52,044 nucleotides of DNA from Mustelus asterias (GCF_964213995.1 NW_027591489.1:11957-64000); one strand, 5' to 3'. Positions 26,256 to 50,710 are shown, counted from the first letter of the stretch. Notes: generated by a model not told the origin, from the letters alone. Translations and numbers: made by a program.

Positions 26256-26446
26256 AATTAATCCAGTTCTCCTGATTTATGTTTCCCTGTATCAATGTGT
26301 AATGGAACCCACTCCTGATACCGTGATCACACAAACACGGTGAGGGAGCTCCCTCTGGTGGTGATCTGAGGTAAATGGCCTCTGCTTGGGAGATCAGTGA
26401 ATTCTCAGACAACTGGAGGATCTTTCTTGTTGCAGGATTACGCTGC
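26256..26446 (-). repeat. Left arm of long-range inverted repeat with CTCF-like motif
   Basis: Reverse complement aligns with 50523-50710; CCACCAGAGGGAGC on the minus strand at 26348-26361. Confidence 0.88.
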
Positions 26447-26624
26447 TTAGGAATAAGAAAAATACGCTCTGTAACATATCACTGTGTAATCCAACAATTA
26501 CTCCAGTTCCCCTGGATTACTGCTCTGTAACATAATACGTAATACGCTGTAATTCAGTAATACGCTGTATTCAGTGTAATCCTGCAACAAGATCCTCCAG
26601 TAATTATAAACTGCCCCTCTGGAA

Positions 26625-26932
26625 CTTTTGTATCTGTCCCCTCTCACCTTAAACCTATGCCCTCTAGTTTTAGACTCCCCTACCTTTGGGAAAATATATT
26701 GACTATCGAGCTGATCTGTGCCCCTCATTATTTTATAGACCTCTATAACATCACTCCTCAGCCTCCTACGCTCCAGAGAAAAAAGTCCCAGTCTATCCAG
26801 CCTCTCCTTATAACTCAATCCATCAAGTCCCGGTCGCATCCTAGTAAATCTTTTCTGCACTCTTTCTAATTTAATAATATCCTTTCTATAATAGGGTGAC
26901 CAGAACTGTACACAGTATTCCAAGTGTGGCCT
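26625..26932 (-). mobile_element. CR1 LINE fragment
   Basis: EYCVQFWSPYYRKDIIKLERVQKRFTRM motif. Confidence 0.9.
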
Positions 26933-27540
26933 ACATATTCACAAAATATTATTTTCTATTAATATCATTTCGCATTAATCGGCTTTAATAGTTCTGCTGT
27001 GCTTTGCATACAATTAACATGACCAAAAAGGTTTCTCGGCTGGAAATATTTTGTGATAATTCCAGAAACAATTTCAATGATAACACGCTGTTTCCACAGC
27101 AGCGCTCAGTTCAACAAGATACTTTGCATTAATTGTTATATCCCCGATGAAGTTCGCATTCACTTAAATATGAGTTTTGGAGAATAATTGGCAATAAAAC
27201 GCTGTTTGGAAATTTTTGTGCCCGATTATTACATTGTTTCTGTGCAGGCGCAGCATTCCTTCCAAGTAATTTGTAGTTGGTGCAGAGGTAATTAATCACT
27301 AATCTCATCTCAAAATTTGTGAAATGGTTTGGTGTTTCTCAATTGTTTCTGTATTGTTTCAACTCGGTGATCCTGAGCGGTTGCACTTTTTCCAGCTAAA
27401 TGAAAAAAACAAACTGCGTTTAAACATCCTTGTCAGGACAAAACAAACTGGTATCGGAAAAAATAAAACAAATATGTATTTGAGCATTTTATTCATGTTA
27501 ACCGATGCTTGCAGATTAAAGTAAATCATGAATTACAATT

Positions 27541-29107
27541 CTTACTGCGTCACTGTATCTCTGTTAGGGACATTACACTACCCTGGATCTGTTATATCTG
27601 ATGTGCTCATTTTCAGAAAAAAAGATATTTTTTGCCTAGTTTTCGAGATTTGAGATAGACAGGGAGAAATAGTTAAAAGTCGAAGGGAATTTTGAAATGA
27701 ATATCAGTTTAATTTAAAAGAAGTTATTGATTTTTGTTGTTGTACTTTGAAAATTGATCAGTTAGAATCCCACAGTTTAAATAAATTTGACTGAGTGAAC
27801 ACAGTTTTCTGACAGGTGGAATTCGCTAACACTAAACAATTGTTCATATCATGGTGTTTGAATTGTCGTAAGGTGTCAACAGAAACTGGCTAGAGATTTA
27901 CAATTTAATACTTGAAATTCAAATAATTAATTTTTTATAATATTATAATATTTTTATATTAGTAATATTTGCTCTGCATTTAATAATAACATCCTGTCTC
28001 CCATTACTGCTGAACATAGAATAGAATTATTGGATGAATAAATGACAGAATAGAAGAATTGATTCTATTTGAGCATTATGTTTAATTAGTATTAAATATT
28101 ATACTGAAGAAAAAGTCTCGACTTATTTTGTGCATCATGTTTCAGTGTTGCAGAGGATTTGAATCAATTGTCCTCATTGTGTTTTTCATTGTTTAATTCA
28201 GAACTTCTTAATTTAAACAATATGTTCAGTAATTAAATTATATGGATGGTCCAAATTATTAAATCTAGGAAGCAGCTTCGTTGACCTCAAACTGCCAGGC
28301 CGTTACAGTGTATACAAATTCAGAAACATGCATTCTTAACACGTTTGCAGGTTACAATAAGGCATTTGGAGTAAAAGTGGAAATGAAAAAACATGACAAT
28401 GTTATTCGATTGAAGCAAATGAATTACAGATGTCTGAATCTTTCCATTCAGGAATTTGAAGTTTATTGTTTGAGATTTAATTGGAACCTAATTACTTCAC
28501 AATGTTCGAGGCAGGGAAAGTTTTGAATGATTGAAAACTGATTTTATTAGGGAGTACAAATCAGCTGACAGGAAAAGTAACCGGCAATTAACAAAACAAA
28601 ATATAATATTCGTGCTAATTAATTTAAAACAAAATACCTTGAATAATGCACGGGCGTGCAAAATATCATCCGTTTTAGAGAATGTTTAATTGTATCGAAA
28701 ATGAATTCAGAAACAAAACCTTTCTTTCATCAGCTATGCTTAGCTCGATAAGGTGTTTTACCTCGACTATTTTGTTGATTACATTTAATTAAGAAATTCG
28801 ATCGAATCAGGTAATGATTTTCAATGTAAATGTTTCTTGGTTTATTTAATCCTTACTGTGTCACTGTATCTCTGTCAGGGACATTGAACTGTCCTGAATC
28901 TGTTATTTTTGATTCCTAATTTTCAGCGAAATTACATTTTTACATAGTTTTCGAGAAGTGAGACAGACAGAGAGACTTAATTAAAAATCGACAGGAGTTT
29001 TGAAATGAATATCAGTTTTATTTAAAAGAGGTCATTGATTTTCTGTTGTAAATTGATCATTGATCAATTAGAATCAAACAGTTTGAATTAAATTGACAGA
29101 TTGAACA
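27541..29107 (+). repeat. Diverged ~260-bp direct duplication (27541-27801 and 28852-29107)
   Basis: Shared CTTACTG.GTCACTGTATCTCTGT.AGGGACATT ... TTTGAAATGAATATCAGTTT.ATTTAAAAGA ... ATTGATCA.TTAGAATC. Confidence 0.88.
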
Positions 29108-29599
29108 TACCGACCTGCTGGGAAATCGATTGTTGCACCGTTTGTGTCTGTTCTGTTTCTGCGCGCGTGGTCACCGTGTTGGGACCAGGAATCTGCCTGA
29201 CTGGTTGCAAATCTTCTGGTTCCTTCTGCTGTATTTCAGGGAGTGAAATTTGATTTATTTCTTCAATAAACTTGTATCTGTGAGAAATGTGACAGTTTGG
29301 CTTGATGTTTGGCTCGGCGTCTCAGAAATTAGATCCCTAAAGCACACTGTGACCATCAGAGAGAGCAGAAACGTCAGACTGCAGAGGGAGATTTGGATGA
29401 TTTTTAACCAGTGATGAACCGGCCTTGGGAATGTTCAATGAGCAAATGCAAAGTGAGATTTACTATATTATGCTCCGGAGTAAAGCAGTCCATGACCTGT
29501 TTGGTATGACAGTTGAAGGGTCAAATTCATTTGCATCTTATTTTTAATCTCCTAAAGCCATTTTAGAGTCATTTGCTCGGCCAGAATTTTTAATCATCA

Positions 29600-48794: not shown

Positions 48795-49855
48795 CCTCCG
48801 TAACCAACACAGGCAAATACAAAATCAAATCAACCGTGTGCCAAAATAGTTAACTCTCCTTACAACTTTTCAGACGGAACAAAACACCCATCTTGAAATT
48901 GCTTTTCCTTTCCCAACATGGCAGAGCTCAAATCTCTGTCGGATTCCTATTCTCGAAAATGACCATGAATCGCACAATTACATCCTCTCTCTCTGTGCCA
49001 AACACAGAAAGTCCGTGCTGCTTTTAACTCTTTACTCCCCTCTTTGGTCCAGGATGCTTGAGACCAACCAATTTAACCCGTCTCTCTCTCTCACACAAGT
49101 GTCTCACAGGAGACCTGTGCTCCTGGGACCTCTCCCTGCTGGTTCTCTCACACGGCCTTGTCCCTTCCTCTGGAACCCCTCCCTGTGAGTTCCTTGCGCC
49201 CGCGCCACCCGCCGTCTGTACACACGGTCTAGCCACTTGATGCTTCTGTAGTTACATGGCAATTTCAGCTCCGCTGCATAGGAGTGTCCGAGAGTCCATC
49301 CCCGGCACCCTATGTTTAAGCATAGCATCTCTGCAAACTCCCCTTCTACTACGCGGCTTTTCGCTCCACTCCATAGGAGATCCGAGAGTCCGTCCCTGGC
49401 CCTTCTACGTTAAGTGTGGGCTCTTTACATACACACCACTTTTGCACCTCTCCCCCAGTCCGAGATACTCAACTTACAGCTTACGGCTGCCAGACGCAGA
49501 GCACCCTAACTGGTGGTATTGAAACAAAGTACTCACCCTCCTTTTGGGAACACGTCCTGCCAGCGGTCACCGGTGAGTACCCTGCTGTCGCAGCGCCAAA
49601 TTGTAAGAGGATTTTTCTCAGGTATCCCCTGAGGTGCTCTGTACTTGTTGAACCTCACTCAATACACAGACTGCAAAAACAGTATATAGTTAAAGAACGA
49701 AAATGAATTTATTTGCTAATGCATGCATCAGGAGAGAGACAGTCAATGAGGGTTGACTGTCCTCTCTGACCTAATATTGCCTGGTTAAATTATTATATTA
49801 TTCTGAACATTTCAATATCCCGCCGACTCTCAACAATCAGAGGGCCCAATCACAA
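48795..49855 (-). mobile_element. LTR retroelement 5' end (LTR, PBS, leader)
   Basis: Minus strand reads ...TTACA-ATT-TGGCGCTGCGACAGCAGGGT: an LTR-terminal CA followed by a tRNA-Ser-like PBS at 49579-49598. AATAAA lies within the putative LTR. The element abuts the truncated CR1. Confidence 0.6.
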
Positions 49856-49858
49856 TAT

Positions 49859-50037
49859 TCCAAAGATGTGCGGGTTAGGTTGATTGGCCAGGTTAAAAAT
49901 TGCCCCTTAGAGTCCTGGGATGTGTAGGTTAGAGGGATTAGCGGGTAAATATGTGGGGGTAGGGCCTGGGTGGGATTGTGGTCGGTGCAGACTCGATGGG
50001 CCGAATGGCCTCCTTCTGCACTGTAGGGTTTCTATGA
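49859..50037 (+). mobile_element. HE1/V-SINE-like 3' half
   Basis: Near-identical reverse complement of 2590-2777. Confidence 0.88.
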
Positions 50038-50522
50038 TGATTTATATGATGATTCAACATTATATCAATGATAGAGCTGTATAAAACGCGAGGTAGGTCA
50101 CGGTTGGAATTTGCTGTACAGTTCTCCTCACCACGTTGCAGGAAAGACGTAATAAGTTTCCCAAGCCCCATTCCGGGATAGCTGATATGTTAGACAAAAT
50201 ATAGTAACGGCAACTCTGAGAAAAGTTTAAAATTGAAGGAGAAACACTGAAATCCGACAGTGTGTCAGGTAAATGTGAGCTAAGAGTCAAATTTACATCC
50301 TGTCAATGTGTGGACCGAACTTTACTGAGGGTTTGAATCTTATCACTATTGCTGTGGCTTCAAATTGTGTAACACGAATATAGTTTATCAGAAAGGCCTG
50401 GAACATTCAAAACAGATAAAGCAATTGATGAAGATTCAAACTGAAATTCATATTAGTTCCGTGCATGGGCCCTTCTGAATTTAATTACATTATAATAAGA
50501 ATAATAGGAACAAGTAAAAATA

Positions 50523-50710
50523 CAGCAGTATAATCGTGCAACAAGATCCTTCAGTAATCTGAAATTCATTGACCTCCCAAACAGAGGCCATTTACCTTAC
50601 ATCACCACCAGAGGGAGCTCCCTCACCGTGTTTGTGTGTTCACTGTTTTAGGAGTTGGTTCCATTACACACTGATATAGGGAGACATAAATCAGGAGAAT
50701 TGGATTCATT
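50523..50710 (+). repeat. Right arm of long-range inverted repeat with CTCF-like motif
   Basis: Reverse complement of 26256-26446; CCACCAGAGGGAGC at 50605-50618. Similarity stops where the hAT element begins. Confidence 0.88.

What the first reader, a model, noticed from the sequence alone, without database searches (positions are those of the whole stretch)
26256..50710. Inverted ~190-bp repeats with divergent CTCF-like sites bracket the whole Ig/TCR block
Seen: 26256-26446 and 50523-50710 are reverse complements (roughly 85% identical by eye), 24 kb apart. Both keep CCACCAGAGGGAGC overlapping a perfect 14-bp palindrome GAGGGAGCTCCCTC. The left arm coincides with the compositional switch from the ZNF domain to the AT-rich Ig domain. 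Known: this matches the CTCF core, and CTCF organises mammalian antigen-receptor loci. The orientation here (left reverse, right forward) is divergent, as at boundaries. Inference: these are insulators that delimit Ig miniclusters, or repeats that mediated inversion or relocation of the block and removed its V-D-J.
Basis: partly seen in the sequence, partly recalled or inferred. Interest (0 to 1): 0.7.

Follow-up and report, generated by a model that had tools for sequence, protein, structure and literature searches.

The report
Duplicated CTCF-motif spacer, not a bracket
The two inverted repeats are copies of a short spacer found over a hundred times among T-cell-receptor and zinc-finger genes of a shark-like genome; it is possibly a docking site for the genome-folding protein CTCF, and it likely landed on both sides of a broken antibody gene by ordinary segmental duplication, not as a purpose-built pair of boundaries.

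Summary
The arms are real: 86.5% identical over 192 nt, each with a 13/15 match to the CTCF core, divergent. They are not a bracket. The core occurs at least 126 times; all 100 listed copies lie on the 20-Mb scaffold C71, which carries IgM clusters and TCR alpha/delta-type V segments, or on smaller contigs. Copies sit beside V segments (24 of 49 examined) or ZNF arrays (10). Of 94 IgM tails, 8 have a listed copy within 30 kb 3' and only this window has one 5'. Five paralogous clusters keep VH and JH and lack a 5' arm. The junction that removed V-D-J is at 26932, 485 bp past the left arm, in a LINE fragment. Each arm is collinear with both its flanks in paralogues and is not chimeric, so recombination between the arms is excluded. 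The left arm came in with a duplicated donor segment; the right arm is native V-field spacer cut by a hAT transposon. The palindrome is not conserved. CTCF binding is untested and the core is not more conserved than its spacer. The scan holds no look-alike of this element, only related notes on CTCF sites near shark V genes.

The parts
24384..26184 (+). Outer flank of the duplicated donor segment ('module A') that carries the left arm
   Evidence: 93-94% identical and collinear with the arm in C170, C181, C194, C479
26210..26274 (.). Remnant of the 56-bp minisatellite; the longer array seen in paralogues is deleted here
26256..26447 (+). Left arm, subfamily A of the spacer element
   Evidence: 18 of 18 diagnostic sites type A
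26347..26361 (-). CTCF-core-like 15-mer, pointing left (away from the Ig block)
   Evidence: core consensus from PMC12885311
26342..26355 (.). 14-bp palindrome, incidental
   Evidence: perfect in 15 of 33 distinct copies and 3 of 12 subfamily representatives
26412..26601 (.). Decayed fold-back made from the end of the arm; replaces the native spacer in subfamily A
   Evidence: 45-bp arms with 4-nt loop in L020
26625..26932 (-). High-copy LINE fragment (CR1/L2-type, family label recalled), part of the donor segment
   Evidence: very high depth in four runs; ORF 26498-26938
26931..26933 (.). Junction between donor segment and IgM J-C intron; V-D-J lost here; 2-bp microhomology
   Evidence: exact junction in 4 contigs: C1457, C553, C462, C4533
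26933..35968 (+). Remainder of the IgM J-C intron
   Evidence: aligns from 26931 with clusters on C127, C143, C166, C437 that keep VH and JH
35969..39639 (+). Four C1-set exons of an IgM-type constant region with secretory tail, no V-D-J upstream
43890..44015 (+). Transmembrane exon
   Evidence: read by eye; conserved in paralogues
46728..47030 (+). Frameshifted TCR alpha/delta-type V relic
47091..47104 (+). Separate CTCF-like site behind the V relic
50151..50523 (-). Native V-field spacer that continues the right arm
   Evidence: 82-83% identical over 563 nt (with the arm) to spacers on C71 and C105
50524..50710 (-). Right arm, subfamily B
   Evidence: 17 of 18 diagnostic sites type B
50605..50619 (+). 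CTCF-core-like 15-mer, pointing right (away from the Ig block)
50711..52044 (+). hAT-type DNA transposon with BED-finger transposase frame; cuts the element where the minisatellite would follow
   Evidence: (weak Pfam hits below cut-off)

Best explanation
The arms are two paralogous copies of a low-copy intergenic spacer from the TCR alpha/delta-type V fields and ZNF arrays of a shark-like antigen-receptor chromosome, likely brought to either side of a decapitated IgM gene by separate segmental-duplication events. Shown: the family has at least 126 copies; its native form is minisatellite - arm - 370-bp spacer next to V segments, often between head-to-head V segments. The right arm belongs to the 3' flank of one small IgM subfamily, where a hAT transposon cut it. 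The left arm belongs to a duplicated donor segment that was joined to the IgM J-C intron at 26932, deleting V-D-J. Inferred: the join was a non-homologous or microhomology-mediated event (2-bp microhomology), and the opposite orientation is an accident of that join. Untested: the 15-mer may bind CTCF in the native V/ZNF setting (about even odds); any barrier effect here would be a passenger effect on a gene that cannot rearrange.
For: 126 pattern matches, control 0; the 100 listed are all on C71 or contigs numbered C88 and above. Within 5 kb of 49 examined copies: V segment 24, ZNF array 10, Ig C exon 1, none 14 (regions). IgM tails with a listed copy within 30 kb: 8 of 94 on the 3' side, 1 of 94 on the 5' side. 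On C71 the median distance from arm to tail is 478 kb against 313 kb for random points (p of being this close 0.86). Of 16 neighbouring pairs within 35 kb, 10 are convergent, 5 tandem and 1 divergent, namely this window. Clusters on C127, C143, C166, C437 align with the window from 26931 and keep VH and JH with no 5' arm; C108 likewise from 28329. C170, C181, C194 are collinear across the left arm to 26932; both C127 copies are collinear across the right arm into the transposon. No chimerism.
Against: The family is strictly confined to the antigen-receptor region, and a core of about 80-100 bp recurs in otherwise unrelated contexts and in runs of four other coded organisms, which fits a functional site. 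The junction is present in 4 contigs, so it was copied or persists. 26 of the 126 matches were not listed and were left out of the distance counts; they sort after C471 and could lie near some of the 11 tails on such contigs. A relaxed pattern (4 mismatches) gave one hit among 19 stretches upstream of C71 tails (L178). The 49 contexts were chosen, not sampled at random.
Confidence: 0.86

Rival explanations
1. The arms are a dedicated pair of CTCF insulators that delimit Ig miniclusters.
For: 13/15 match to the CTCF core; family confined to the antigen-receptor region; divergent sites occur at skate insulation minima (PMC10115646).
Against: Both-sided placement at 1 of 94 tails; minimum distance 71 kb on C71; intact paralogues lack the 5' arm; enclosing sites are convergent in mouse Ig-lambda clusters (PMC5859386); the enclosed gene has no V-D-J.
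Confidence: 0.03
2. Recombination between the inverted arms inverted or moved the block and removed V-D-J.
For: Inverted homology of 190 bp flanks a block that has lost V-D-J.
Against: Breakpoint is 485 bp outside the arm; each arm keeps its native inner and outer flank; no crossover along 18 diagnostic sites; arm identity (86%) equals the family average of 88%, so no homogenisation.
Confidence: 0.02
3. The left arm is not an accident of position: the fold-back hairpin beside subfamily-A arms is a fragile site that made this donor segment join repeatedly to IgM, ZNF and V regions.
For: 45-bp near-perfect hairpin in L020; homology among subfamily-A copies ends at several different points within 1.6 kb of the core, and the far sides include ZNF, IgM 3', IgM intron and V regions.
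Against: The window's break lies about 330 bp beyond the decayed hairpin, in a LINE; some end points may be insertions; the whole region is heavily shuffled and I measured no background breakpoint density.
Confidence: 0.06
4. The left junction is an assembly chimera, so the bracket does not exist.
For: Small contig (87 kb) in a repeat-rich region; no listed contig piece from four public runs bridges 26932.
Against: Exact junction in 4 contigs with small differences among them, one continuing into a different IgM paralogue.
Confidence: 0.03

Closest known systems
Elasmobranch antigen-receptor complex: IgM/IgW/IgNAR miniclusters linked to TCR alpha/delta, with TCR-type V exons between IgH clusters (PMC12227049, section 6 read)
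   Same: C71 carries 19 IgM tails at 4.6-19.3 Mb interspersed with TCR alpha/delta-type V segments; the window has IgM C exons next to a V relic.
   Different: That paper has no mention of CTCF or zinc finger in its main text; it does not describe this spacer family or decapitated clusters fused to ZNF regions. Its supplement was not read.
CTCF sites in mouse antigen-receptor loci (PMC5859386, passages)
   Same: CTCF motifs in both orientations scattered through a TCR alpha/delta V region.
   Different: Mouse sites are ChIP-proven; the clustered Ig-lambda locus is flanked by convergent sites, while the pair here is divergent and unique to one broken cluster.
Vertebrate CTCF site, core plus optional upstream motif (PMC12885311, passages)
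   Same: 13 of 15 core positions match; the A at position 12 also occurs in the proven IL3 site quoted there.
   Different: The 10-mer at the upstream position matches the published upstream consensus at only about 5 of 10 positions (compared by eye); no binding data.
Low-copy repeats and orphon gene fragments of segmental-duplication mosaics (general class, recalled)
   Same: Paralogous spacer carried passively; junctions with short microhomology; constant-region relic without V-D-J.
   Different: Here the mosaic mixes IgM, TCR V field, ZNF genes and a minisatellite-hairpin module.

Membership tests
CTCF binding site | Match to the 15-bp core | tested here: met
   13/15 in both arms; chance mean 0.28 per window
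CTCF binding site | Upstream motif (optional, typical of insulators) | tested here: inconclusive
   about 5/10 match at the expected distance, by eye
CTCF binding site | Core more conserved than flanks | tested here: inconclusive
   7 changes in 15 columns against a mean of 6.0 among 7 representative spacers; 73% of windows as low or lower; low power. Cross-species depth peaks on the core but this is also the centre of the laid stretch
CTCF binding site | CTCF or cohesin occupancy | not testable with these tools
   no ChIP data available
Insulator pair enclosing an Ig minicluster | Present on both sides of most clusters | tested here: not met
   1 of 94 tails; five intact paralogues lack the 5' copy
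Insulator pair enclosing an Ig minicluster | Convergent orientation around the enclosed unit | tested here: not met
   divergent; precedent convergent
Inversion-mediating inverted repeats (NAHR) | Breakpoints inside the repeats, flanks exchanged, chimeric arms | tested here: not met
Transposon terminal inverted repeats of a 24-kb element | Other copies with both arms around the same interior; arms nearly identical | tested here: not met
   no other divergent pair among 16 close pairs; arms belong to different subfamilies. Target-site duplication not separately tested
High-copy dispersed repeat (SINE/MITE) | Genome-wide dispersal with unrelated flanks | tested here: not met
   none of 100 listed copies on C1-C70; flanks shared over kilobases
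Low-copy repeat of segmental duplications | Tens to hundreds of copies, regional confinement, long shared flanks | tested here: met

The most novel reading that the evidence does not exclude
The conserved core of this family is a bound CTCF element that segmental duplication has spread through the shark antigen-receptor chromosome; together with one V-facing CTCF-like site in the J-C intron of most IgM clusters, it forms a loop-extrusion code that keeps RAG scanning inside each IgM minicluster although clusters are interleaved with TCR V segments and ZNF genes.
Probability: 0.15. Interest if true: 0.65.

Novelty: new member of a known kind. Interest (0 to 1): 0.2.

Why it matters
The pair itself matters little: it marks two unrelated duplication events around an IgM gene that cannot rearrange. 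The useful by-products are two candidate CTCF site families in the shark antigen-receptor complex (this spacer family, and a site in the IgM J-C intron), which give concrete ChIP targets for the question of how shark miniclusters rearrange independently among interleaved TCR V segments. I found no paper on CTCF at shark Ig or TCR loci in the top 20 of 41 listings or in the listings; subscription journals and supplements were not covered.

Tried and rejected
Inversion by recombination between the arms: rejected. Terminal repeats of a large transposon: rejected. Functional palindrome: rejected, it is broken in most subfamilies. Purifying selection on the core: not detected in the unanchored test; the higher conservation is biased because copies were picked by the motif. 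Closeness of arms to V segments on C71 (median 107 kb against 313 kb, p 0.006) is inflated because the V query came from beside an arm and covers only 150 scored matches, so it is not used as main evidence. RSS or J segments inside 26933-35968: none convincing. Public runs: all are assembled contigs, none of the listed pieces bridges the 26932 junction or shows a strand change at the arms, which is no evidence either way. PDB sequence search of one neighbouring V gave antibody and TCR alpha hits and does not by itself fix the class; the TCR alpha/delta label rests on 23-RSS, lack of D-J nearby, TCR alpha among the best single-domain hits, and recall. No CTCF weight matrix was available; consensus matching was used instead.

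Full report
Observation. The arms 26256-26447 and 50710-50524 are 86.5% identical over 192 nt. Each holds CCACCAGAGGGAGCT, 13 of 15 positions of the CTCF core given in PMC12885311 (passages); these are the only two such hits in the window, chance mean 0.28. They point away from each other. The AT-rich stretch is only 26933-29000 (GC 0.31) and the block as a whole has GC 0.43. The window lies on contig C1457 of a 3.68-Gb genome. IgM-type exons, the V-D-J layout of paralogues and a 'shark metagenome' row indicate a shark; that is an inference.

Copy number and distribution. A 26-mer from the arm centre occurs 43 times with at most 1 mismatch, and a 30-mer over the most stable part 126 times with at most 2 mismatches; reversed controls gave 0. 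All 100 listed places are on C71 (20.4 Mb) or on contigs numbered C88 and above; 26 were not listed. C71 carries 19 of 94 IgM secretory-tail matches interspersed with V segments of TCR alpha/delta type. This matches the elasmobranch antigen-receptor complex of PMC12227049 (section 6 read).

Native context. In fetched regions the element reads 56-bp minisatellite - arm - spacer of about 370 bp, next to V segments with 23-RSS and often between head-to-head V segments (for example C1085). Other subfamilies lie in ZNF gene arrays. Within 5 kb of 49 examined copies I found a V segment in 24, a ZNF array in 10, an Ig C exon in 1 and none of these in 14; the copies were chosen to cover subfamilies, not at random. 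The 14-bp palindrome is perfect in 15 of 33 distinct copies and 3 of 12 representatives.

Not a cluster boundary. Of 94 tails, 8 have a listed copy within 30 kb on the 3' side and 1, this window, on the 5' side. On C71 the nearest copy to any tail is 71 kb away and the median distance is no shorter than random. Of 16 neighbouring pairs within 35 kb only the window's is divergent. Where Ig clusters or domains are enclosed by CTCF the sites face inward: mouse Ig-lambda (PMC5859386, passages) and skate TADs (PMC10115646, passages). Against this: 26 matches were unlisted, more diverged copies may exist (179-203 first-look candidates), and a relaxed pattern hit 1 of 19 stretches upstream of C71 tails.

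How the window arose. Clusters on C127, C143, C166 and C437 align with the window from 26931 onward and keep VH and JH upstream with no 5' arm; C108 does so from 28329. Left of 26932 the window follows a different duplicated segment, seen in C170, C181, C194, C391 and C479, which runs flank - minisatellite - arm - fold-back - LINE (C479 leaves it inside the fold-back). The join has 2 bp of microhomology and lies 485 bp past the arm; it is exact in 4 contigs. The right arm with its inner spacer and outer hAT-type transposon is collinear with both C127 copies (99.96% over 12.7 kb; about 97-98%). At 18 diagnostic sites the left arm is wholly type A and the right arm 17 of 18 type B. Recombination between the arms would give breakpoints inside them, swapped flanks and chimeras; none is seen. 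Shown: junction position, collinearity, subfamily identity. Inferred: repair mechanism and order of events.

Is the motif functional? Untested. For: good core match, retention of a core of about 80-100 bp in several contexts and in runs of four other coded organisms. Against: in copies found by whole-spacer BLAST the core shows 7 changes in 15 columns against a mean of 6.0 (7 representatives of 22 distinct copies), some subfamilies alter core positions, and the upstream motif matches weakly. I put binding at about even odds.

By-product. A different CTCF-like 22-mer occurs 77 times (control 2); 62 lie 10.8-16.9 kb upstream of a tail, all facing back toward V-D-J, none parallel within 20 kb. 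Of 19 stretches chosen by C71 tail, 13 held a JH; 11 of those have the site nearly exact 358-371 bp behind JH and 2 have decayed versions. Its conservation is not significant (7 changes against 12.3; 14% of windows as low). This site, lost from the window with V-D-J, is the better candidate for a per-cluster element. Nurse shark miniloci rearrange within themselves and lie at least 120 kb apart (PMC2435157, passages).

Earlier notes. No note near this place and no look-alike of the arm; related notes on CTCF-like sites behind shark V genes, on V islands beside ZNF genes and on a CTCF minisatellite beside an IgM pseudogene in another genome exist. They are leads, not support.

Verdict. Real repeats, ordinary cause: two members of a regional low-copy spacer family joined around a decapitated IgM gene. 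New member of a known kind; interest 0.2.

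Noticed in passing
IgM J-C introns, e.g. L100:2269-2290 (C437); absent from the window: CTCF-like 22-mer about 360 bp behind JH, 77 copies, 62 paired with an IgM tail and all facing V-D-J; conservation above flanks not significant.
   Followed up: partly
window 26412-26601; L020:1656-1749: Fold-back hairpin (45-bp arms, 4-nt loop in L020) at the end of subfamily-A arms; homology among copies ends at several points within 1.6 kb beyond the core.
   Followed up: partly
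L089 (C166:442726-443172): Germline-joined, in-frame VH-D-JH in a close paralogue of the window's IgM; C127 and C143 show only one internal 12-RSS, as if partly joined.
   Followed up: no
window 18174-24384: The ZNF-gene segment sits between two G-rich minisatellites and is absent from the paralogous segment in C170, C194, C479 and C391, as if inserted at the minisatellite.
   Followed up: no
window 46728-47104: Frameshifted TCR-type V relic followed by a CTCF-like site; the same site follows related V relics on C71, C104, C105, C119, C1085.
   Followed up: partly
window 50711-52044: hAT-type transposon with a 444-aa open frame running off the window; same insertion point in C127, C108, C166, C437 copies.
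   Followed up: no
window 45792-46142: Short relic on the minus strand that reads like a 7-transmembrane receptor fragment (by eye; no Pfam hit), also present near V relics on C391.
   Followed up: no
L145 (C181:336617-336739): Three consensus 23-RSS in tandem at 61-bp spacing.
   Followed up: no
C71:8208859/8213736 and like pairs on C88, C107, C111, C122: Convergent pairs of family cores 4.9-7.9 kb apart; the C71 pair has a ZNF array between its two cores.
   Followed up: no
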